DNA of 64,000 bases from Escherichia coli (GCF_016903815.1 NZ_CP069973.1), one strand, 5' to 3'. Shown: positions 25,404 to 34,500, counted from the first letter of the stretch. Program-made: numbers and translations. The notes: generated from the sequence alone by a model not told the origin.

Positions 25404-27176
25404 ATGACCATCACCACAGACACCACTCTTTTACACGACCCGCGTCGTCAGGCGGCGCTGCTGTACTGGCAGGGGTTTTCCGTGCCGCAGATTGCCGCCA
25501 TGTTGCAGATGAAACGCCCGACGGTGCAGAGCTGGAAACAGCGCGACGGCTGGGACAGCGTTGCCCCCATCAGCCGTGTCGAAATGAGTCTGGAAGCGCG
25601 GCTGACCCAGCTCATCATCAAACCGCAGAAAACCGGCGGTGACTTCAAGGAAATTGACCTGCTGGGACGCCAGATTGAACGACTGGCACGGGTCAACCGT
25701 TACAGCCAGACCGGCAACGAGGCAGACCTTAATCCGAACGTCGCTAACCGCAACAAAGGCGGGCGGCGCAAACCGAAAAAGAATTTTTTCAGTGACGAGG
25801 CCATCGAAAAGCTGGAGCAGATTTTCTTTGAGCAGTCTTTCGACTATCAGTTGCACTGGTATCGCGCCGGGCTTGAGCACCGCATCCGCGATATCCTGAA
25901 ATCCCGCCAGATTGGCGCAACGTTTTATTTTTCCCGCGAGGCGCTGCTGCGCGCCCTGAAAACCGGTCATAACCAGATTTTTCTGTCGGCCAGTAAAACG
26001 CAGGCGTATGTGTTCCGCGAATACATCATCGCCTTTGCCCGGCTGGTTGACGTTGACCTGACCGGTGACCCGATTGTCCTGGGCAATAACGGCGCAAAAC
26101 TGATTTTTCTCGGCACCAACTCCAACACCGCACAGAGCCATAACGGCGACCTGTACGTCGACGAGATTTTCTGGATCCCGAATTTTCAGGTACTGCGTAA
26201 GGTGGCATCAGGTATGGCCTCACAGAGTCACCTGCGCTCGACCTATTTCTCCACCCCGTCCACGCTGGCGCACGACGCCTACCCGTTCTGGTCGGGTGAA
26301 CTGTTCAACCGGGGACGCGCCAGCGCCGCCGAACGCGTGGAAATCGACGTCAGTCATAACGCCCTTGCCGGTGGGCTTCTCTGTGCGGACGGCCAGTGGC
26401 GACAGATTGTCACCATTGAGGACGCCCTGAAAGGCGGCTGCACGCTGTTCGACATTGAGCAGCTCAAACGCGAAAACAGCGCCGACGATTTTAAAAACCT
26501 GTTCATGTGTGAATTTGTTGACGACAAGGCATCGGTGTTCCCGTTCGAGGAGCTGCAACGCTGCATGGTCGACACGCTGGAAGAATGGGAAGACTATGCA
26601 CCGTTTGCCGCCAATCCGTTCGGCTCCCGCCCGGTATGGATTGGTTACGACCCGTCACACCGTGGCGACAGCGCCGGATGCGTGGTGCTGGCACCGCCGG
26701 TGGTGGCCGGTGGCAAATTCAGAATACTTGAGCGTCACCAGTGGAAAGGCATGGACTTTGCCACCCAGGCTGAATCCATCCGCAAACTCACCGAAAAATA
26801 CAACGTCGAATACATCGGAATTGATGCCACCGGCCTCGGTGTCGGCGTGTTCCAGCTCGTGCGCTCGTTCTATCCCGCCGCGCGCGACATCCGCTACACG
26901 CCGGAAATGAAAACCGCAATGGTGCTCAAGGCCAAAGACGTTATCCGCCGTGGCTGTCTGGAATATGACGTCAGCGCCACCGACATCACCAGCTCGTTTA
27001 TGGCTATCCGCAAGACCATGACCAGCAGCGGACGCAGTGCCACCTATGAAGCCAGCCGCAGCGAGGAAGCCAGCCACGCCGACCTCGCCTGGGCGACCAT
27101 GCACGCCCTGTTAAATGAGCCACTCACCGCCGGTATCAGCACCCCGCTGACATCCACCATTCTGGAGTTTTACTGA
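25404..27176 (+). CDS. P: Terminase large (ATPase) subunit gpP
   Basis: Start at MTITTDTTLL; about 590 aa; position. Confidence 0.9.
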   Translation: MTITTDTTLLHDPRRQAALLYWQGFSVPQIAAMLQMKRPTVQSWKQRDGWDSVAPISRVEMSLEARLTQLIIKPQKTGGDFKEIDLLGRQIERLARVNRYSQTGNEADLNPNVANRNKGGRRKPKKNFFSDEAIEKLEQIFFEQSFDYQLHWYRAGLEHRIRDILKSRQIGATFYFSREALLRALKTGHNQIFLSASKTQAYVFREYIIAFARLVDVDLTGDPIVLGNNGAKLIFLGTNSNTAQSHNGDLYVDEIFWIPNFQVLRKVASGMASQSHLRSTYFSTPSTLAHDAYPFWSGELFNRGRASAAERVEIDVSHNALAGGLLCADGQWRQIVTIEDALKGGCTLFDIEQLKRENSADDFKNLFMCEFVDDKASVFPFEELQRCMVDTLEEWEDYAPFAANPFGSRPVWIGYDPSHRGDSAGCVVLAPPVVAGGKFRILERHQWKGMDFATQAESIRKLTEKYNVEYIGIDATGLGVGVFQLVRSFYPAARDIRYTPEMKTAMVLKAKDVIRRGCLEYDVSATDITSSFMAIRKTMTSSGRSATYEASRSEEASHADLAWATMHALLNEPLTAGISTPLTSTILEFY

Positions 27177-28210
27177 TGAGCAAGAAAAAAGGGAAAACAC
27201 CGCAACCTGCGGCAAAAACAATGACCGCCAGCGCCCCGAAAATGGAGGCATTCACCTTTGGTGAGCCGGTGCCGGTACTCGACCGCCGTGACATTCTGGA
27301 TTACGTTGAGTGCATCAGTAACGGCAGATGGTATGAGCCACCGGTCAGCTTTACCGGTCTGGCAAAAAGCCTGCGTGCTGCCGTGCATCACAGCTCACCG
27401 ATTTACGTCAAACGTAATATTCTGGCCTCGACATTTATCCCGCATCCGTGGCTTTCCCAGCAGGATTTCAGCCGCTTTGTGCTGGATTTTCTGGTGTTCG
27501 GTAATGCATTTCTGGAAAAGCGTTACAGCACCACCGGTAAGGTCATCAGACTGGAAATCTCACCGGCAAAATATACCCGCCGTGGCGTGGAGGAGGATGT
27601 TTACTGGTGGGTGCCGTCCTTCAACGAGCCGACAGCCTTCGCGCCCGGTTCCGTGTTTCACCTGCTGGAGCCGGATATTAATCAGGAGCTGTACGGCCTG
27701 CCGGAATATCTCAGCGCCCTTAACTCTGCCTGGCTGAATGAGTCGGCCACGCTGTTCCGCCGCAAGTATTACGAAAACGGCGCTCATGCCGGATACATCA
27801 TGTACGTCACTGATGCCGTGCAGGATCGCAACGATATCGAAATGCTTCGCGAAAACATGGTTAAGTCGAAAGGCCGCAATAACTTTAAAAATCTGTTTCT
27901 CTATGCCCCGCAGGGGAAAGCCGACGGCATTAAAATTATCCCGCTCAGTGAAGTGGCGACGAAGGACGATTTTTTTAATATCAAAAAAGCCAGCGCCGCA
28001 GACCTGCTGGACGCGCACCGCATCCCCTTTCAGTTGATGGGCGGCAAGCCGGAGAACGTCGGGTCGCTGGGTGATATTGAGAAAGTGGCAAAGGTCTTTG
28101 TCCGCAATGAGCTTATCCCGCTACAGGACAGGATCCGCGAGATAAACGGCTGGCTCGGTCAGGAGGTCATCCGCTTTAAAAACTACTCACTGGACACTGA
28201 CAACGACTGA
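27176..28210 (+). CDS. Q: Portal protein gpQ
   Basis: 344 aa; coupled to P. Confidence 0.9.
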   Translation: MSKKKGKTPQPAAKTMTASAPKMEAFTFGEPVPVLDRRDILDYVECISNGRWYEPPVSFTGLAKSLRAAVHHSSPIYVKRNILASTFIPHPWLSQQDFSRFVLDFLVFGNAFLEKRYSTTGKVIRLEISPAKYTRRGVEEDVYWWVPSFNEPTAFAPGSVFHLLEPDINQELYGLPEYLSALNSAWLNESATLFRRKYYENGAHAGYIMYVTDAVQDRNDIEMLRENMVKSKGRNNFKNLFLYAPQGKADGIKIIPLSEVATKDDFFNIKKASAADLLDAHRIPFQLMGGKPENVGSLGDIEKVAKVFVRNELIPLQDRIREINGWLGQEVIRFKNYSLDTDND

Positions 28211-28596
28211 ACATCGCCGCCTGCGGGCGGCTTTTTTACATCCCGTCATCACGCCCTCACACGCTCACCACCGCACAAAACACCCCTTAGACACACCAAC
28301 GCCCCGACGCACAATCTAAACGCCATCACGACGCGCTCAGACGCTGAAAAAATAAAATCAGCACCACCGCCAGCGCGCAGTGCTTTCCCCGCCTCGCCCG
28401 CCCGCTTCATGAGACGGTTTTGATGCAGTCGCATTTGTCTTGAAAACCAAGTAACTAGACGGCTATCAGTCATAGACAGGCAGCTTTTTTTTTCATACAT
28501 TTTGTATGCAAAATCATGCACGCCTAATCAAGACGAATCTTCGTTCACAGCCATTATGCATGAATGCGAAAATTACTGTTCGAAAAAGGATAATTT
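28211..28596. other. cos / packaging region (by position after Q); also holds the promoter and RBS of the GHKL gene
   Basis: Non-coding stretch after the portal gene where P2 carries cos; exact cos ends not identified. Confidence 0.35.
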
Positions 28597-30021
28597 ATGG
28601 TTTCGTCAAACGTCAAAATAGCAGCATTTCCAGCAAAAAGATTCTTTGTTGAGATGCTCACCCGAGATATTGAGTTGTCTGACTCAATTCTAGATTTACT
28701 AGATAACTGCCTAGATGGTGTATTAAGAAAAAACAATTTCACTCCAGAGCAAACCTTCGGTAAATCAGACGTTTACAAGGGTTACTATGCTCATATTGAA
28801 TTTGATGAGAATAGTTTCAGAATAACTGATAATTGCGGAGGTATTCCAGCAAAACTTGCGGAAAGCTATGCGTTTAGGTTGGGTAGACCTGCAGAACGTG
28901 AGGCGGATGATCTCCCGACAATTGGTGTATATGGTATCGGAATGAAACGAGCGATTTTCAAAATGGGGACATCTGCTCAGATTTTAAGCAAAACTGAAAA
29001 CGAACAATTTTCAGTTACCATTTCTCCTGAATGGATGGCTGATGATGAAAACTGGTCTTTGGAGTTAGAGCGAAATAATGTTGACTTAAACGAAACAGGC
29101 GTCAGCATCCAAATTAACAATTTAAGGAAAGATATTAAAGCATCCCTATCAAAGGATCGTGGCTTTGAAGAAGTTTTGATTAATATCATAGCAAATCATT
29201 ATAGTTTAATCATTAAAAAAGGGTTTGAGGTTAAAGTAAATGGATGTATTGTTAAGCCAAATAGCACCAATTTAATATTTGATGAAGAAGCCATTAAAGG
29301 CAATACCGACGGCATTGCTCCTTATGTATATAAAAATAATTCAAATGGAGTTTCAATTAAAGTTGCAGTTGGATTTTATCGTAACTTGCCTAGTGAGGAA
29401 GAAGAAGAGAATTTATTATCAGGCCGTTCCACAACAGAAAAAGCTGGTTGGACAATTATATGCAATGATCGTGTAGTCCTACATGCGGATAAAACCAAGC
29501 TTACAGGTTGGGGAGAAGCTGGAGTTCCACAATATCATACTCAATTCATCGGAATTTCTGGTGTTGTTATTTTCACATCATCAAATGCTGAATTACTACC
29601 TATCACTACAACTAAACGAGGTGTTGATGGTAACTCTGAGCTATATCTTTCTACTAAAGATTTTATGCGCGAGGGTTTAAAATTCTTCACGGACTTTACC
29701 AACAAATGGAAAAGTAACGCAGAGGAAAGAAAGCAAATTATTAATACTGCATCCAATATGGTTTCAACAACTGAGGTCGACTTTACTAAATCAATTCCTA
29801 GAGAAAACTGGTCGAACGTTCGACGTTCAATAGGAGGAGAAGTTTTCAAACCGAAGCTACCAATGCCTCGGGATTCGGATCCATTACGTCAGATAAAATT
29901 TAGCCGTAGACATAGTGAAATAAAACTGGTGTCAGAGTTTCTCTTTGATGATGCAACTCAACCACCAACAGAGGTTGGTCAATATTGTTTTGATGAATTT
30001 CTAAAAAAGGCTAAACAATGA
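28597..30021 (+). CDS. GHKL-superfamily (MORC/MutL/Hsp90-like) ATPase, cargo gene at the tin/old locus
   Basis: 474 aa; Bergerat-fold motifs read directly: N-box DLLDNCLDG, G1 box DNCGGIP, G2 box GVYGIGMK; AAGGA RBS; AT-rich. Confidence 0.75.
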   Translation: MVSSNVKIAAFPAKRFFVEMLTRDIELSDSILDLLDNCLDGVLRKNNFTPEQTFGKSDVYKGYYAHIEFDENSFRITDNCGGIPAKLAESYAFRLGRPAEREADDLPTIGVYGIGMKRAIFKMGTSAQILSKTENEQFSVTISPEWMADDENWSLELERNNVDLNETGVSIQINNLRKDIKASLSKDRGFEEVLINIIANHYSLIIKKGFEVKVNGCIVKPNSTNLIFDEEAIKGNTDGIAPYVYKNNSNGVSIKVAVGFYRNLPSEEEEENLLSGRSTTEKAGWTIICNDRVVLHADKTKLTGWGEAGVPQYHTQFIGISGVVIFTSSNAELLPITTTKRGVDGNSELYLSTKDFMREGLKFFTDFTNKWKSNAEERKQIINTASNMVSTTEVDFTKSIPRENWSNVRRSIGGEVFKPKLPMPRDSDPLRQIKFSRRHSEIKLVSEFLFDDATQPPTEVGQYCFDEFLKKAKQ

Positions 30022-31010
30022 GTACTGGCGGAAGCATCCCATATCATTTGCGGCAAAACAAAGCCATTGAAAGGAATCTATTTATAGAATCCCTAAGAAG
30101 GTTAAACAATTATACAAACATATCCGAATATGTATATATAGGATTCGGGGGGCCTTTCCTCGAAGATTTCAAACAAATTCATAATTTGTTAAAAGTGACT
30201 AAAATGATATCTATCGAAGGAGATAAAAATGTCCATTGCCGACAACAGTTTAACAAACCATTATCTTGCATAAATTTGGGTGATACCCCAGAAATGAGCG
30301 GAGACTTCATCAATCGCTATAACTTTGACGATAAAACGATCATATGGTTAGATTATGCAACGCCTTCAGACTTAAATGCTCAGTTAAATGAAATAGTTAA
30401 TTTGGTTACAAAGCTAAAACCCAAAGACATTTTTAAGATCACTTTAAATGCAAACCCTGAAGCCTTGGGAAAAAACCCGAGCGAACGAGATCCAAGAGCA
30501 TATAGATTTCAAAAGATAAACGATATTTTGACTCAAGATTTTTTACCACCGAATGCAGTAGTCGAAGATGTCGGATTTAAAAAATACCCTATGCTCCTAG
30601 TTAATGCTATGAGACGCGCAATAGGGCATGGATTAAAAGGTCGAAATGACATAAGAATACATCCATTAACTTCTTTCGTTTATAAAGATGGCCAACAGAT
30701 GGTTACTTTAACAGCTATCGTTCTTGAAAACACTGATACAGAAGAAGCTAAATTTATTGATAATTCCAGAATCAAGAATTGGCCATTTTATGATGGGAAG
30801 TGGAGTAATCCTAAAAATATAAACGTCCCTGCTATGTCTTTAAAAGAAAGGATACATATTGAATCTTTATTACCCGAAGCTTCAGTAGAAAACATCCATG
30901 AAACTCTAGGGTTTTACATTGGCTCCACTCCTTCTGGAGCCAACTCCGATCTAAGTAATTTTATCGAATACTACAAGGTCGTTCCATGGTATTCAAAGAT
31001 TCTTTTTTAA
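30018..31010 (+). CDS. Uncharacterised 330-aa protein, translationally coupled to the GHKL ATPase
   Basis: Start overlaps the GHKL stop by 4 nt; no motif recognisable by eye; AT-rich. Confidence 0.65.
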   Translation: MSTGGSIPYHLRQNKAIERNLFIESLRRLNNYTNISEYVYIGFGGPFLEDFKQIHNLLKVTKMISIEGDKNVHCRQQFNKPLSCINLGDTPEMSGDFINRYNFDDKTIIWLDYATPSDLNAQLNEIVNLVTKLKPKDIFKITLNANPEALGKNPSERDPRAYRFQKINDILTQDFLPPNAVVEDVGFKKYPMLLVNAMRRAIGHGLKGRNDIRIHPLTSFVYKDGQQMVTLTAIVLENTDTEEAKFIDNSRIKNWPFYDGKWSNPKNINVPAMSLKERIHIESLLPEASVENIHETLGFYIGSTPSGANSDLSNFIEYYKVVPWYSKILF

Positions 31011-32118
31011 CTTTTAAACAGTAATCGTATAAAGGTAATAGCATAGCCTCAGCCACAAGCGGACTAACGCTATTACCTATCTGTCTAAAACTGTGCCACT
31101 TTGTAGGATGAAAACGGAACCAATCAGGAAACCCTTGTAACCTAGCTGCTTCACGAGGAGTTATCACCCTAGCTTGAGTAGGGTGAATTGGCCTAACGGC
31201 CTGATAACTCCCCTTGTCACTTCCTGTACCTGCTCTCAAAGTTGGACAAAAACCGTTAGGATTGAGTCGTTGTGATCTCGAAATCTTATCAGTTTCACCG
31301 AATGAAAGTTGTCTATATCTCCTGAGCACTTCCTCCGAATGAGCTGTACCTAAAAAGCCAGATACCAATCCTTTCTTTAAATTTTGAATGGATTCTGCAT
31401 CACCTACACCATTTGGTATATGTCCCCAAAGTCGCTCATAATAGTAACCATCTTTATCCATTTTTACTGAACGCCAGCCTTGCTCCTCTGTCTGCCACTC
31501 TTTTCTTATAGTTCGCGGTAATCCGTAGAGTGCATCTTTGACAAGAGTCTGCTCTATTATATTTTTAGGAAAAAAATCAGATTCTTTTAACTGATTAATA
31601 AAACCTCTTTTAAAACCCATGAAAAATATTCGTGTCCGTGTCGTAGGTGCTCCATAATTTGAAGCATTAACCCTTATTGGATGTAATAAACAATAGCCAT
31701 CTCTAACTAAAGAAAATGCTTCTTCTCTTACTGGATTATATTTCTCACCCATAATTCCTGGAACATTCTCTGCCAAAAAACAAATTGGAGATAACTCACT
31801 TACCAACCTAAAAAAATGAATATACAATTCATTTCTTGTATCATTGGCATTCCTTTTTCCAATGGTGCTAAATCCTTGGCAAGGTGGACCACCAATAACG
31901 CAATCAATGTCCTTTACAGCACATGCAGACAAAATATCTTTTGCTGTAAGCGAGCAGACATCCCGATGCAAATGTGTTGATTTTGGGAAGTTTAACTCAT
32001 GTGAAAAAATAGCATGTTTATCCAGTTCAACAGCTCCAACCAAGTTGAAACCGGCTCGAGTTGCCCCTAAGCTTAAACCGCCAACTCCAGAGAATAAATC
32101 AACTACATTCATATTCAA
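30961..32118 (-). CDS. DNA (cytosine-5)-methyltransferase
   Basis: 385 aa; motif I DLFSGVGG, motif IV GGPPCQGFS, motif VI ENVPG, C-terminal QIGNSVSP; 3' end overlaps the partner gene by 50 bp convergently. Confidence 0.85.
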   Translation of the reverse strand: MNMNVVDLFSGVGGLSLGATRAGFNLVGAVELDKHAIFSHELNFPKSTHLHRDVCSLTAKDILSACAVKDIDCVIGGPPCQGFSTIGKRNANDTRNELYIHFFRLVSELSPICFLAENVPGIMGEKYNPVREEAFSLVRDGYCLLHPIRVNASNYGAPTTRTRIFFMGFKRGFINQLKESDFFPKNIIEQTLVKDALYGLPRTIRKEWQTEEQGWRSVKMDKDGYYYERLWGHIPNGVGDAESIQNLKKGLVSGFLGTAHSEEVLRRYRQLSFGETDKISRSQRLNPNGFCPTLRAGTGSDKGSYQAVRPIHPTQARVITPREAARLQGFPDWFRFHPTKWHSFRQIGNSVSPLVAEAMLLPLYDYCLKVKKESLNTMERPCSIR

Positions 32119-32394
32119 ATAACCATGCTAAAGATTCAACTAACGATCATGTATTCTATCATGACATCAGTCATTGTCTAAAGCCATAGTTGCTTTAAAA
32201 GTTGAATCAAACTAACAATCCCTTAATGTGAGAAAGTGATTTTTCGGATGATTAATAGCCACGCTCCAGCCCCCTGAAGTTCCCAATTTGCTGCTGATGG
32301 TCATTTTGAAAAACTCAAAGCAAGTGAACGACAGTTACTCTCTCCAAGCTCCGACCATCCAAACGAACAATGTAATCCTATGCAATTATATCAG

Positions 32395-34500
32395 CTAGCC
32401 ACTTATCTTCTCTTGCCGAGTAAACATTGGCAAATAATGCTTTAATGTGTTTCTAAACACTCTGACGACCTCTGGGTCACTCCATTCGATAACACCGTCA
32501 TCAACCAGATTAAGCACTGCTGCGGCGTGCTCAGAAGGTGTGGGAGCCGGTAACGAAGTATCACCACCAGTGAGCTTTCCACAGTTATTGACAGGACTCC
32601 GAGGCGCGGCGATGCCGCTTTTTAAAGTCAAAGGCTCAACGACCGGAACTTTCGGCACAATGCGCCAGTCCGTCGTTCTGGTGATATGAATATGACGCGC
32701 GCCGAGATGCGGCGCGTAAATGCCGACCACTCTCTCGACTTCTTCCTCGTACTCGTTAACGTCATCCGACGGGCTACGGGCAACCCTGACAGTCTGACAA
32801 TCGCGCGGGACATTTGCCCCACCCTGCGCGCTGATATACAACGCAAAATCACCACTGTCTGCGGCAGCGCGAGCAGCCTCGACGCGTTCGTCAAACTCAT
32901 CAGCAATACTGACGCCGCGAGGCAATTTGCGTAGTTCACGGTAAGCCCCCATTGTCGGCAGTCCAACCGTTTTAAATTGCGGGATGCGCCACGTTGACGC
33001 CCATGCAGTAACAGCCGCGGCAGTATCTTTCAGAGGTCTGCCGGTATCGTTATCGAGCTGACCATCCAGTGCATAGCCGTCGATGTTTTTTGAGATGTAT
33101 TTCGCGATATACCCCGCAGCACCGCCCCGGTTAAGGTGTTTTGCCTGAAAACGGTTTCGCGCGGCTCCTCTTTCGTCGCCATCCTCTTTGAGCGCATAGC
33201 GACGCATGATTTCGATAATCTGGTTACGCTGGCGCGGATTACAAAAAAGCATCATATGCCAGTGCGGCGTTCCGTCGTGGTGTGGCTCGACGACACGCAA
33301 ACCGTAGACCTGTAAATCATTATCCTTGAATGCCGTGCGCATCAGGCTCCAGATACGGCAGAGATAACGCTGCGCATCCTTTGGATTAAATGCCTCATCG
33401 TTCCAGCCGTGATTTAGCTGGACGGTTTTACTTTCGCCTTTTCTGACCTGACGTGTCGGGTGATACTTTGACGGCGCGGTCAGCGTGATAAACATCCCCA
33501 CATCACCCTCTGCTGCGGCGTAACGCTCAATACCGGCAATGGTGTTCATCAGCTCCATCCGGCGAATTTCAGGATTAGAAATACTGCCCATCACCTTACT
33601 GATAAGGTCGATGCGCTCGCCGGTTTCCCTGTTTTCGAGATCACACGATTTAAGAAATTCCAGATTTGCCTGGCGGCGTGCACGCACATCACGAATGGCA
33701 TGTTTACTGGCATAAGGAGAACGGTCTTTATTGACCTCCCCGACAGCAATCAGTAACGCCTCATGCCAGCGCATACGCTGGCCTTTAAGCTGATGAGTCC
33801 ACCACTCATCGTTAAACAGACGGGCAATGGCAGAATATGCCTGCCTCGTGGTCATCTGCCCTTTACGGTATTTTTTCCAGTAGAGAGGGGATATATTGAA
33901 AGCACGTGCAGCGCCAGCAACATGACCATAGAGGTGAGCCTGCGCCTCATCCGTAAACAGCGATTCTTTTTCGCCATGCGCATCCACCCAGGCATCGCTG
34001 AGTTCCTCATACATCATGAAAAGCTGCGATGAGATACGGGCAGCAAACTTTTTCAGCTCCTTGTCATTCATTCCCGGCAGGCGCGCATAGTGGTCACGCT
34101 CTGCCAGAAACAGTAACGACGCGTCGGTGTTCATTTCATGGCGCTGATTCACACGCTCAATGCGCGGCCATAAACGGCGCTGAAAAGTGGATGTGAGGAA
34201 ATAAAACCCGTGCACCGGGCTTTTATTGCGCCGGATGTAGTCATAGCGTGAAGTAAACAGCGAACGCAAAAAGTAAGGCAGGCGGTTAATCGTGGATAAA
34301 ACACCTTGCACCTGACGCATCTCGTCACGTGTAAGGGGTCTTTCGCGCCCGACAGCCTCGCGTGGCGCGCTCCATGCATAAGCACCGGTAAACGTCTTAC
34401 CGGTGCCTGCAGCAAATGCTGACGGAGGGACAAAACGCCCGGAGGCTTTAATGGCCATATGAGCCAAAAGCCTCTGAACAACGCTTGCTGAGTTGCTCAA
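32395..34500 (-). CDS. A: Replication initiation endonuclease gpA
   Basis: 701 aa in-frame ORF; position at end of early operon; true start may be upstream. Confidence 0.8.
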   Translation of the reverse strand: MSNSASVVQRLLAHMAIKASGRFVPPSAFAAGTGKTFTGAYAWSAPREAVGRERPLTRDEMRQVQGVLSTINRLPYFLRSLFTSRYDYIRRNKSPVHGFYFLTSTFQRRLWPRIERVNQRHEMNTDASLLFLAERDHYARLPGMNDKELKKFAARISSQLFMMYEELSDAWVDAHGEKESLFTDEAQAHLYGHVAGAARAFNISPLYWKKYRKGQMTTRQAYSAIARLFNDEWWTHQLKGQRMRWHEALLIAVGEVNKDRSPYASKHAIRDVRARRQANLEFLKSCDLENRETGERIDLISKVMGSISNPEIRRMELMNTIAGIERYAAAEGDVGMFITLTAPSKYHPTRQVRKGESKTVQLNHGWNDEAFNPKDAQRYLCRIWSLMRTAFKDNDLQVYGLRVVEPHHDGTPHWHMMLFCNPRQRNQIIEIMRRYALKEDGDERGAARNRFQAKHLNRGGAAGYIAKYISKNIDGYALDGQLDNDTGRPLKDTAAAVTAWASTWRIPQFKTVGLPTMGAYRELRKLPRGVSIADEFDERVEAARAAADSGDFALYISAQGGANVPRDCQTVRVARSPSDDVNEYEEEVERVVGIYAPHLGARHIHITRTTDWRIVPKVPVVEPLTLKSGIAAPRSPVNNCGKLTGGDTSLPAPTPSEHAAAVLNLVDDGVIEWSDPEVVRVFRNTLKHYLPMFTRQEKISG

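What the first reader, a model, noticed from the sequence alone, without database searches (positions are those of the whole stretch)
28597..32118. Candidate undescribed modification-linked defence cassette at the P2 tin/old hotspot: GHKL ATPase + coupled unknown protein + convergent C5-cytosine methyltransferase
Between the portal gene/cos and replication gene A, where P2 carries the anti-phage genes tin and old, this prophage carries three visibly AT-rich genes (roughly 35-40% G+C by eye, not computed). The first encodes a 474-aa protein with all three Bergerat-fold motifs of GHKL ATPases (DLLDNCLDG, DNCGGIP, GVYGIGMK) and a long C-terminal extension. The second, 330 aa, overlaps it by 4 nt. 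The third is a convergent C5-cytosine methyltransferase whose 3' end overlaps the second gene by 50 bp. A methyltransferase tightly linked to an ATPase module at a known phage defence hotspot suggests a restriction-modification-like or modification-dependent immune system. GHKL/MORC-like ATPases have been noted in R-M-like operons in comparative-genomic work (recalled from memory), but I do not recognise this GHKL + 330-aa + Dcm-like trio as a named system.
Basis: partly seen in the sequence, partly recalled or inferred. Interest (0 to 1): 0.85.

Follow-up and report, generated by a model that had tools for sequence, protein, structure and literature searches.

The report
Prophage MORC-like ATPase–methyltransferase trio
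A P2-like prophage of E. coli carries, at its known anti-phage hotspot, a tightly conserved three-gene cassette (a MORC-like ATPase, a coupled methyltransferase-fold enzyme and a dedicated DNA cytosine methyltransferase) that is widespread on mobile elements, has no nuclease and has never been tested, and most likely is an unnamed restriction-modification-like immune system.

Summary
Three intact genes lie at 28597-32118, 37% G+C against 52% in the flanks, between P2 portal gene Q and replication gene A.

ORF1 is a MORC-like GHKL+S5 ATPase; its model's best structural matches are MORC3, MORC2 and SMCHD1. ORF2 is not "unknown": it is a full-length member of Pfam PF20553 (Methyltransf_35), a class I SAM-methyltransferase fold. 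ORF3 is a C5-cytosine methyltransferase of one distinct subfamily (PDB 3g7u).

ORF1 and ORF2 are adjacent in every complete locus of 93 examined, usually with a 4-nt overlap, and they co-evolve (r = 0.94). The Dcm subfamily lies within the ≤10-kb flanks in 75 of 93 loci, in several orientations. In Dcm-anchored sampling, 31 of 33 subfamily loci have a paraMORC module and 0 of 45 generic Dcm loci do.

The trio rides on P2 hotspots, lambdoid prophage CP-933R of O157:H7, a Pf inovirus, Tn7-like elements and defence islands. PADLOC has no model for ORF1 or ORF2. Rousset 2022 lists the arrangement in a supplementary table but did not test it.

Best reading: an R-M-like or "RM+Abi"-like system, a new variant of the paraMORC-Dcm systems predicted in 2008, with a methyltransferase-fold protein in the effector slot. 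Function and mechanism are inferred, not shown.

The parts
27176..28210 (+). Context: P2-type portal gene Q, the left border of the hotspot
   Evidence: ORF. Annotated 'phage portal protein' in the 100% identical E. coli 7/2 record. A portal homolog flanks the trio in 23 further fetched loci, alongside gpA.
28216..28231 (+). Terminator-like hairpin after gene Q
   Evidence: GC-rich 6-bp stem followed by a T-run. This is a consensus match only.
28473..28573 (+). Two promoter-like sites upstream of ORF1 (28473-28501 and 28544-28573)
   Evidence: Consensus scan, 9 of 12 matches each. The number of sites in the region is not above chance. Weak evidence.
28597..30021 (+). ORF1, a MORC-like GHKL+S5 ATPase of the paraMORC type (474 aa). 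ATP-binding domain at about residues 30-159. S5 transducer domain carries invariant K340 in the TTTKRG motif (nt 29614-29616). Family-specific C-terminal domain at residues ~348-474.
30018..31010 (+). ORF2, a PF20553 (Methyltransf_35) class I SAM-methyltransferase-fold protein (330 aa), translationally coupled to ORF1. Motif I is VYIGFGGPFLED (nt 30132-30170). The motif II acid is E67 (nt 30216-30218, in the stretch 30201-30221). Motif IV is WLDY, with D112 (nt 30351-30353, in the stretch 30336-30365).
30961..32118 (-). ORF3, a C5-cytosine DNA methyltransferase of a subfamily dedicated to paraMORC modules. The likely start is the ATG at 32112. The catalytic motif GGPPCQ lies at nt 31861-31899.
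   Evidence: TIGR00675 scores 175 bits against a cut-off of 100.65. PADLOC MTase_II E = 5e-100. PDB 3g7u E = 4e-155. The association test is and TRD conservation.
30961..31010 (.). 50-bp convergent overlap of the ORF2 and ORF3 3' ends
   Evidence: The same -50 overlap is kept in all P2-hotspot copies, and -40 in a second prophage group.
32153..32180 (-). Promoter-like site (TAGACA-16-TAGAAT with an extended-10 TG) upstream of dcm
   Evidence: 10 of 12 consensus match. Consensus match only.
32395..34500 (-). Context: replication gene A, the right border of the hotspot. It is truncated at its cassette-proximal 3' end.
   Evidence: 97% identical to an intact 766-aa gpA up to about residue 684, then it diverges and stops. 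RefSeq flags it as a pseudogene.

Best explanation
The cassette is a mobile three-gene 'Dcm-paraMORC' module, most likely an R-M-like (or 'RM+Abi'-like) anti-phage system that works without a recognisable nuclease.

Proposed mechanism:
1. The C5-methyltransferase, from a subfamily found almost only next to such ATPases, puts an m5C mark on resident DNA at a conserved motif. The enzyme features are shown; the marking role is inferred.
2. The MORC-like GHKL+S5 ATPase dimerises on ATP binding and clamps or scans DNA, as MORC, MutL and topoisomerase ATPases do. It detects DNA that lacks the mark, or a disturbance of methylation during infection. This step is inferred.
3. Through its family-specific C-terminal domain it controls its obligate, translationally coupled partner, the PF20553 enzyme. 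That protein occupies the slot which sister modules fill with a fused HEPN-like toxin domain, so it is the effector. It would be a SAM-dependent transferase that chemically modifies nucleic acid (phage DNA, or RNA of the infected cell) and so blocks phage propagation. This step is inferred, and the substrate is unknown.

On this reading the Dcm also protects the host from the ATPase-effector pair.
For: Gene integrity and coupling:
- All three genes are intact, and ORF1 and ORF2 overlap by 4 nt.
- GHKL and MT35 are adjacent in every complete locus across Proteobacteria, Cyanobacteria, Planctomycetes, Acidobacteria, Bacillota and Actinobacteria.
- GHKL and MT35 co-evolve, r = 0.94 overall and 0.82 among deep pairs.

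Linkage to the Dcm:
- The Dcm lies within the ≤10-kb flanks in 75 of 93 loci (within 300 bp in 64), in at least four arrangements. That argues for selection on linkage rather than shared ancestry of one operon.
- In Dcm-anchored sampling of IMG/VR, 31 of 33 subfamily loci have a paraMORC GHKL: 23 with MT35, 8 of the longer GHKL2 type.
- The two exceptions have the Dcm at or near a contig end.
- None of 45 generic Dcm loci has a paraMORC GHKL.
- The Dcm target-recognition region keeps its length in most loci and is about as conserved as the catalytic core.

The two operon proteins look active:
- The ATPase motifs and the S5 lysine are invariant, and the best structural matches are MORC3, MORC2 and SMCHD1.
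- MT35 has a class I methyltransferase fold. G44 and D112 are invariant at the motif I and IV positions, and an acidic residue (E67, or D) holds the motif II position. Several other polar residues are invariant too.
- The MT35 family is large: 2214 clusters at 50% identity with E ≤ 1e-3. The best 150 hits, the only ones listed, are all standalone proteins of about 300-380 aa.

Sister module:
- The same Dcm subfamily pairs with GHKL2 proteins. Their C-termini match PD-Lambda-5_A, part of a validated defence system (E = 2e-23), or Aga_HEPN.
- Some loci hold both modules around a single Dcm.

Context:
- P2 hotspot in 23 further fetched loci.
- Lambdoid prophage CP-933R of O157:H7, intact in 172 of the 173 E. 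coli genomes that carry it.
- The moron locus of inovirus PfAC20.
- Tn7-like cargo.
- Chromosomal neighbours HEC-01AB, a TIR effector, PDC-M38B and PsyrTA.

Precedents:
- paraMORCs were predicted to act in R-M systems (Iyer 2008).
- paraMORC3, a Shedu-type protein (VcSduA), is experimentally anti-phage.
Against: - There is no experimental evidence of phage protection for this trio anywhere in the searchable literature.
- No nuclease or other known toxin fold was found in ORF1 or ORF2. The effector role of a methyltransferase-fold protein has no precedent.
- About ten cyanobacterial loci carry the GHKL-MT35 pair with no Dcm within 10 kb. The pair can therefore exist without a linked Dcm.
- The Dcm co-evolves with the pair only loosely at depth, r about 0.4.
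- The P2 hotspot also carries non-defence cargo (Rousset 2022).
- The chromosomal neighbours scanned were picked by eye, not at random.
- Phage-borne methyltransferases often serve the phage itself, for anti-restriction.
Confidence: 0.5

Rival explanations
1. This is an epigenetic or repair module that serves the mobile element or host rather than immunity. The Dcm (and perhaps MT35) methylates DNA to evade host restriction or to regulate genes. The MutL-like ATPase assists m5C-linked very-short-patch repair or chromatin-like organisation.
For: - A Vsr-like gene accompanies the module in 15 genome loci.
- MutL is a GHKL+S5 protein and is among the structural matches.
- Iyer 2008 allowed that some paraMORCs were recruited to repair.
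- No nuclease is present.
- Orphan methyltransferases are common on phages; cites a review.
Against: - The window cassette has no vsr.
- This reading does not explain why the partner slot is filled by HEPN-like toxin domains in sister modules.
- It does not explain why the module is repeatedly found in defence hotspots and islands of unrelated elements.
- It does not explain an obligate ATPase-MT35 pair in Dcm-less cyanobacterial loci.
Confidence: 0.2
2. This is a selfish addiction (post-segregational killing) module. Like many Type II R-M systems, the trio mainly stabilises the prophage: loss of the Dcm exposes the genome to the ATPase-MT35 pair.
For: - R-M-like logic and tight linkage.
- In the decayed copies seen, the ATPase or MT35 is broken while the Dcm stays intact (L037, L049, L076). 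The only E. coli copy lacking the Dcm also has a truncated MT35.
Against: - The number of decayed copies is very small.
- Dcm-less pairs exist in cyanobacteria.
- Addiction and defence are not mutually exclusive, so this is more a second role than a true rival.
Confidence: 0.15
3. The three genes are two unrelated neighbours, an orphan prophage Dcm and a separate two-gene unit, which happen to share an AT-rich island.
For: - The Dcm is on the opposite strand with its own promoter-like site.
- The Dcm is absent from about 20% of MT35 loci.
- Deep co-evolution with the pair is weak.
Against: - Dcm-anchored sampling gives 31 of 33 subfamily loci with a paraMORC neighbour against 0 of 45 generic Dcm loci.
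- The only phage GenBank record with a close Dcm homolog is the one that carries the trio.
- Linkage survives at least four different gene orders.
Confidence: 0.03
4. [quoted passage not shown]
For: A triplet with analogous architecture is described by Bellieny-Rabelo 2021.
Against: - No PF19191 or PF19192 match in any of the 51 and 58 family members scanned.
- ORF2 has a methyltransferase fold, not a receiver fold.
Confidence: 0.02

Closest known systems
paraMORC/MORC GHKL ATPases in R-M-like operons (Iyer, Abhiman & Aravind 2008, PMC2292703)
   Same: GHKL plus S5 architecture with a conserved basic residue and a family-specific C-terminal extension. Neighbourhoods contain a cytosine methylase and Vsr. 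The genes are laterally mobile and were predicted to function in R-M-like systems.
   Different: That paper's partners are SF-II helicases, RE-fold or HNH nucleases, TIR or an HxH domain. No SAM-methyltransferase-fold partner appears in its main text. Which of paraMORC1-5, if any, ORF1 belongs to could not be determined here. None of those systems with a Dcm has been characterised experimentally.
Dcm + paraMORC-HEPN fusion (Anantharaman 2013), i.e. the 'GHKL2' sister module found here, and PD-Lambda-5 'RM+Abi' (Vassallo 2022)
   Same: The same Dcm subfamily and the same kind of GHKL+S5 N-terminal module. The two occur side by side around one Dcm in several loci. PD-Lambda-5 is a validated prophage-borne methyltransferase-plus-effector defence system.
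   Different: In the window the effector is not a fused HEPN-like domain but a separate PF20553 protein. ORF1 and ORF2 give no PD-Lambda-5 hit.
C5-MTase + HEF_HK (GHKL) + Response_reg_2 triplets (Bellieny-Rabelo 2021, PMC8011034)
   Same: A three-gene architecture of a C5-methyltransferase next to a HATPase_c_3 protein and a smaller obligate partner. The function is unknown.
   Different: Neither the HEF_HK nor the Response_reg_2 domain is present. The partner here is a 330-aa methyltransferase-fold protein.
Shedu type I-D / VcSduA (paraMORC3)
   Same: A GHKL ATPase that controls an effector. Both ATPase and effector are required for experimentally shown anti-phage activity.
   Different: VcSduA is a single polypeptide with a DUF4263 PD-(D/E)xK nuclease and no methyltransferase. 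No such domain is present here.
Classical Type II restriction-modification
   Same: A DNA methyltransferase tightly linked, often convergently, to a second activity. It is carried on mobile elements.
   Different: No restriction endonuclease fold was detected. The partner is an ATPase plus a second methyltransferase-fold protein.
Eukaryotic MORC2/MORC3/SMCHD1
   Different: Only 15-17% sequence identity, and ORF1 lacks the CW, coiled-coil and hinge domains. Any functional parallel is an inference.
Mza (MzaABCDE; a PADLOC model; origin recalled from memory as Gao 2020)
   Same: It contains a MutL-like GHKL protein (MzaB) in a methyltransferase-linked defence system.

Membership tests
GHKL ATPase superfamily (Bergerat fold) | Motifs I-III (N-box ExxxNxxD-like, DxGxG, GxxGxG) that form the ATP site | tested here: met
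   DLLDNCLDG, DNCGGIP and GVYGIGMK are present and invariant or nearly invariant across 51 homologs. Pfam HATPase_c_3 matches 51 of 51 members.
MORC/paraMORC-type GHKL+S5 ATPases (Iyer 2008) | An S5-fold transducer domain after the GHKL domain that supplies a conserved basic residue | tested here: met
   [not shown]
MORC/paraMORC-type GHKL+S5 ATPases (Iyer 2008) | Gene neighbourhood with DNA (mostly cytosine) methylases and Vsr | tested here: met
   The Dcm is within the ≤10-kb flanks in 75 of 93 loci, and Vsr-like genes are present in 15.
MORC proper (as opposed to paraMORC) | The MORC-specific sequence motif in the S5 domain that unifies the family | not tested
   The motif is not spelled out in the text retrieved. 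Assignment to one of paraMORC1-5 was also not possible.
Pfam PF20553 Methyltransf_35 | Full-length match to the family HMM | tested here: met
   E = 5.4e-85 over residues 3-328. 58 of 58 homologs match.
SAM-dependent class I methyltransferases | Rossmann-like seven-strand fold with a glycine-rich motif I, an acidic motif II and a motif IV residue at the end of strand 4 | tested here: met
   [not shown]
O-methyltransferase (the name given by Pfam and RefSeq) | Methyl transfer to an oxygen acceptor | not testable with these tools
   The nearest structures are mostly N- and C-methylating RNA enzymes at 9-11% identity. The name has no experimental basis that I could find.
C5-cytosine DNA methyltransferase | The conserved motif set, including the catalytic PC (motif IV), ENV (VI) and RxR (VIII); score above the curated cut-off | tested here: met
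   GGPPCQGFS, ENVPG and TRTR are present. TIGR00675 scores 175.3 bits against a cut-off of 100.65. PDB 3g7u matches at E = 4e-155.
Type II restriction-modification system | A cognate restriction endonuclease (nuclease fold) next to the methyltransferase | tested here: not met
   [not shown]
[not shown]
   ORF1 gives no MzaB hit. Homologs give only marginal hits. There are no further genes in the cassette.
PD-Lambda-5 (RM+Abi) | Match to the PD-Lambda-5_A effector protein | tested here: not met
   No hit for ORF1 or ORF2. Hits occur only in GHKL2 proteins of sister loci.
HEF_HK / Response_reg_2 + C5-MTase triplet | The PF19191 and PF19192 domains | tested here: not met
   Neither domain appears in any family member.
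Anti-phage defence system (functional class) | Reduced phage propagation when the system is expressed | not testable with these tools
   Only contextual evidence is available: hotspots and islands, and a catalogue entry without a test in Rousset 2022.

The most novel reading that the evidence does not exclude
This would be a nuclease-free 'restriction by modification' system. A bacterial MORC-like clamp reads the absence of a dedicated m5C mark and directs a SAM-dependent transferase to chemically modify invader nucleic acid (or host RNA), arresting infection. That would be both a new effector chemistry for prokaryotic immunity and a direct prokaryotic antecedent of the eukaryotic link between MORC ATPases and DNA methylation in silencing.
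Probability: 0.15. Interest if true: 0.9.

Novelty: new variant of a known kind. Interest (0 to 1): 0.66.

Why it matters
If the trio is a working immune system, it would be the first characterised member of the Dcm-linked paraMORC systems predicted in 2008. It would also put a methyltransferase-fold enzyme in the effector slot, which no named defence system does.

It is common and easy to reach:
- About 4% of complete E. coli genomes carry it.
- That includes essentially the whole O157:H7 and O111 lineage sample, where it sits in prophage CP-933R.
- The partner protein family has more than 2000 clusters at 50% identity, found across many phyla.
- A crystal structure of a close homolog of the methyltransferase already exists (3g7u).

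It also offers a simple bacterial model for how a MORC-type ATPase is coupled to cytosine methylation, which is an open question for the eukaryotic proteins.

In practice, annotation pipelines currently call it an 'incomplete R-M system' or an 'O-methyltransferase'. Both labels are probably misleading.

Tried and rejected
- PADLOC, NCBIfam and PHROGs scans of ORF1 and ORF2 gave no named family. PHROGs returned only two 'unknown function' groups.
- Sequence searches of the PDB with ORF1, ORF2 and the MT35 profile found nothing significant.
- A nucleotide search of GenBank phages found no match.
- Literature searches for Methyltransf_35, PF20553, GHKL with O-methyltransferase, paraMORC, HATPase_c_3 with DNA_methylase, and 3G7U found no paper on this trio.
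- A lead that the Vibrio cholerae WonAB system might be this pair was wrong. WonA is an ABC ATPase and WonB a PD-(D/E)xK nuclease.
[quoted passage not shown] This could not be reproduced with NCBIfam, and the name carries no known function.
- No Rfam family lies in or around the cassette.
- Promoter and terminator scans are no better than chance overall.
- I could not look up the Dcm in REBASE because it is not available here.
- I considered a hidden nuclease in the ORF1 C-terminus, or a MutL-type endonuclease domain. I rejected both for lack of any match.


Full report
**1.

The window contains three ORFs:
- 28597-30021 on the + strand, 474 aa.
- 30018-31010 on the + strand, 330 aa, overlapping ORF1 by the 4-nt ATGA.
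- 30961-32118 on the − strand, 385 aa from a TTG start. RefSeq starts it at the ATG at 32112, giving 383 aa.

The convergent overlap between ORF2 and ORF3 is 50 bp. The cassette is 37.1% G+C against 52.2% for the flanking prophage.

The flanks are terminase P and portal Q on one side and replication gene A on the other. Both Rousset 2022 and Vassallo 2022 define this interval as the P2 old/tin defence hotspot. The window is 100% identical over this stretch to a P2-like prophage next to yegR/yegS in E. coli strain 7/2. The cassette is present at ≥99% identity in 45 of 5426 complete E. coli genomes.

**2. What the three proteins are**

*ORF1.* It carries Pfam HATPase_c_3; all 51 family members scanned match this family, and 2 also match the related HATPase_c at E ≤ 0.001.
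- A 51-sequence alignment shows invariant ATP-site residues and an invariant lysine in a TTTKRG motif.
- ORF1 is therefore a MORC-like GHKL+S5 ATPase with a conserved C-terminal domain of about 125 residues that has no match.

*ORF2.* It is not an unknown protein.
- It matches Pfam PF20553 (Methyltransf_35, 'putative O-methyltransferase') end to end at E = 5e-85.
- In a 58-sequence alignment G44 and D112 are invariant at the canonical motif I and IV positions. Position 67 (motif II) is always E or D. R19, Y40, R75, Q76, W110, D224, P271 and E277 are also invariant.
- That pattern is what one expects of an active enzyme with a defined substrate pocket. The 'O-' in its name has no basis I could trace.

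*ORF3.* It is a complete C5-cytosine methyltransferase. TIGR00675 scores 175 bits against a cut-off of 101, and PADLOC MTase_II gives E = 5e-100. Its close homolog is PDB 3g7u, at E = 4e-155.

No nuclease, HEPN, TIR or other known effector fold was found in ORF1 or ORF2. No Rfam RNA lies in the region.

**3. The trio is a conserved unit**

I fetched 54 loci from one-genome-per-species contigs and 39 from IMG/VR, anchored on ORF2.

| Test | Result |
|---|---|
| GHKL gene directly upstream of MT35 | every complete locus, usually with the same 4-nt overlap |
| Taxa covered | Enterobacteria, Vibrio, Pseudomonas, Burkholderiales, Cyanobacteria, Planctomycetes, Acidobacteria, Bacillota, Actinobacteria |
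| GHKL-MT35 pairwise identities | r = 0.94 (0.82 among deep pairs) |
| Dcm of the same subfamily (phmmer E 1e-70 to 1e-270) | present in 75 of 93 loci, within 300 bp in 64 |
| Dcm arrangements | downstream convergent, downstream co-directional, upstream co-directional, upstream divergent |
| Dcm co-evolution with the pair | r = 0.78 overall, about 0.4 deep |
| Dcm target-recognition region | keeps its length in most loci; about as conserved as the catalytic core |

The conserved target-recognition region points to one orthologous methyltransferase family, probably with a shared or similar target.

The reciprocal test is the strongest. I anchored on the Dcm in IMG/VR.
- The hits split cleanly into 33 subfamily loci (≥41% identity) and 45 generic Dcm loci (≤33%).
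- Of the 33 subfamily loci, 23 have GHKL-MT35 next door. One of these shows only MT35 because the contig ends there.
- 8 have a longer paraMORC ('GHKL2').
- The remaining 2 have the Dcm at or near a contig end.
- None of the 45 generic loci has either kind of module.

The only GenBank phage record with a close homolog of this Dcm is the one that also holds the pair.

**4. A sister module and what it implies**

GHKL2 proteins (546-610 aa) share the GHKL+S5 core. After a low-complexity linker they end in a helical domain that matches PD-Lambda-5_A (E = 2e-23), Aga_HEPN or PD-Lambda-3_B in PADLOC.
- Such paraMORC-HEPN fusions in R-M neighbourhoods were noted by Anantharaman et al. 2013.
- PD-Lambda-5 is an experimentally validated prophage defence system, described as a compacted 'RM+Abi' system.
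- Several loci hold both modules around a single Dcm.

So the same methyltransferase serves ATPases whose effector is either fused (HEPN-like) or, in the window, a separate translationally coupled protein. By position, the PF20553 protein is the effector.

**5. Context**

Besides 23 further fetched loci in the P2 Q-A hotspot, the trio lies in several other settings:
- The lambdoid prophage CP-933R of E. coli O157:H7 EDL933. It is intact in 172 of the 173 genomes that carry it, and 3g7u is that copy's Dcm.
- The accessory locus of the filamentous phage PfAC20, where a 2025 paper read it as an incomplete R-M system.
- Tn7-like elements.
- One Microvirga plasmid, where only the ORF2 homolog was examined.
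- Chromosomal islands next to HEC-01AB, a TIR effector, PDC-M38B and PsyrTA. Those neighbours were chosen by eye, so this is weaker evidence.

The ORF2 family is large: 2214 clusters at 50% identity with E ≤ 1e-3. The best 150 hits, the only ones listed, are all standalone proteins of about 300-380 aa.

**6. What is known**

- Iyer et al. 2008 defined MORC and paraMORC GHKL+S5 ATPases and showed their linkage to cytosine methylases, Vsr, helicases and nucleases. They proposed roles in R-M systems. No methyltransferase-fold partner is mentioned in the main text.
- Bellieny-Rabelo et al. [quoted passage not shown] Those domains are absent here.
- One paraMORC family (paraMORC3, a Shedu type) is experimentally anti-phage.
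[quoted passage not shown] The tested-systems table contains no matching sequence, and the text does not mention the arrangement.
- PADLOC v2 has no model for ORF1 or ORF2.

**7. Interpretation**

*Shown by computation:*
- Three intact genes with enzyme-like conservation.
- An obligate ATPase-MT35 pair.
- A dedicated Dcm subfamily.
- Mobility and residence in defence hotspots.
- A sister module with a toxin-like domain in the equivalent slot.

*Inferred:*
- The Dcm marks self DNA.
- The MORC-like ATPase senses unmarked DNA or disturbed methylation.
- MT35 is the effector that modifies nucleic acid.

I give this R-M-like or RM+Abi-like defence reading about 0.5. The main weaknesses are the lack of any experiment, the absence of a known toxic activity, and roughly ten cyanobacterial loci where the pair has no Dcm within 10 kb.

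The rivals are:
- An m5C-linked epigenetic or repair role (0.2).
- A mainly selfish addiction role (0.15; not exclusive of defence).
- Coincidental neighbours (0.03; nearly excluded).
- Two-component-like signalling (0.02).

**8. Verdict**

The finding is real and well delimited. It is neither an artefact nor a known named system. It is also not wholly undescribed: it is a new variant, with a new effector partner, of the predicted paraMORC-Dcm class, and it has been catalogued but not tested.

It is attractive for experiment because it is short (3.5 kb), is common in E. coli including O157:H7, and bears on how MORC-type ATPases are coupled to cytosine methylation.

Noticed in passing
window 32395-34500 (-): Replication gene A is 97% identical to an intact 766-aa gpA up to about residue 684, then diverges and stops. 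Roughly the last 80 codons, on the cassette side, are lost. RefSeq flags the gene as a pseudogene in the identical strain, so the prophage may be replication-defective.
   Followed up: partly
L096 3547-7046 (E. coli O157:H7 EDL933, prophage CP-933R): A second version of the trio, about 66% nucleotide identity in the Dcm gene, sits in a lambdoid prophage. It is intact in 172 of 173 E. coli genomes (O157:H7, O111 and others). Its Dcm matches PDB entry 3g7u; that 3g7u is the EDL933/CP-933R protein is recalled from memory, not shown by a tool result.
   Followed up: partly
NZ_CP038372.1 (E. coli O157:H7 F6294), hit H78: This is the only O157-type copy that is incomplete. It keeps the ATPase and the first third of the MT35 gene; the rest of MT35 and the Dcm are missing. 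That fits, anecdotally, with loss of the Dcm being tolerated only when the partner is broken.
   Followed up: no
L095 280-3711 (Pseudomonas inovirus PfAC20): A filamentous phage carries the trio with all three genes co-directional at its accessory locus. The source paper scored it as an incomplete R-M system with only a methyltransferase.
   Followed up: partly
L005, L006, L009-L012, L023, L024, L028, L049, L111, L112, L118, L120-L122, L130: A sister two-gene module pairs the same Dcm subfamily with a 546-610-aa paraMORC. That protein's C-terminus matches PD-Lambda-5_A or Aga_HEPN. Its linkers hold striking low-complexity repeats: PQETQI in L111, QDQQ in L112 and DPN in L130.
   Followed up: partly
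L049 9274-13864 (Photorhabdus luminescens): Only a short remnant of the MT35 gene survives beside what looks by eye like a transposase fragment. Dcm, GHKL2 and Vsr are intact, and a PsyrTA system lies directly upstream.
   Followed up: no
L015-L020, L022, L025, L027, L033 (cyanobacteria and Parabeggiatoa): The ATPase-MT35 pair stands alone here, with no C5-methyltransferase within 10 kb. In L017 a HEC-01AB system follows it about 740 bp downstream, after one intervening 202-aa ORF.
   Followed up: partly
AFDB entries B8IIG2 and A0A6M0K1W3 (the latter matches the species and 339-aa length of the L034 protein): [quoted passage not shown] NCBIfam release 20 gives no hit for the L034 protein, and the name has no known function. 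'TcmP' is also the name of a tetracenomycin O-methyltransferase (recalled from memory), so the 'O-methyltransferase' label could be a naming carry-over. That last point is speculation.
   Followed up: partly
Rousset 2022, supplementary file 6 and file 7: [quoted passage not shown] A Vibrio parahaemolyticus 'Kinase-methylase' candidate (GIY-YIG + HATPase_c_3 + TadZ_N + DNA_methylase) is listed too. GHKL-methylase cassettes therefore recur in prophage hotspots.
   Followed up: no
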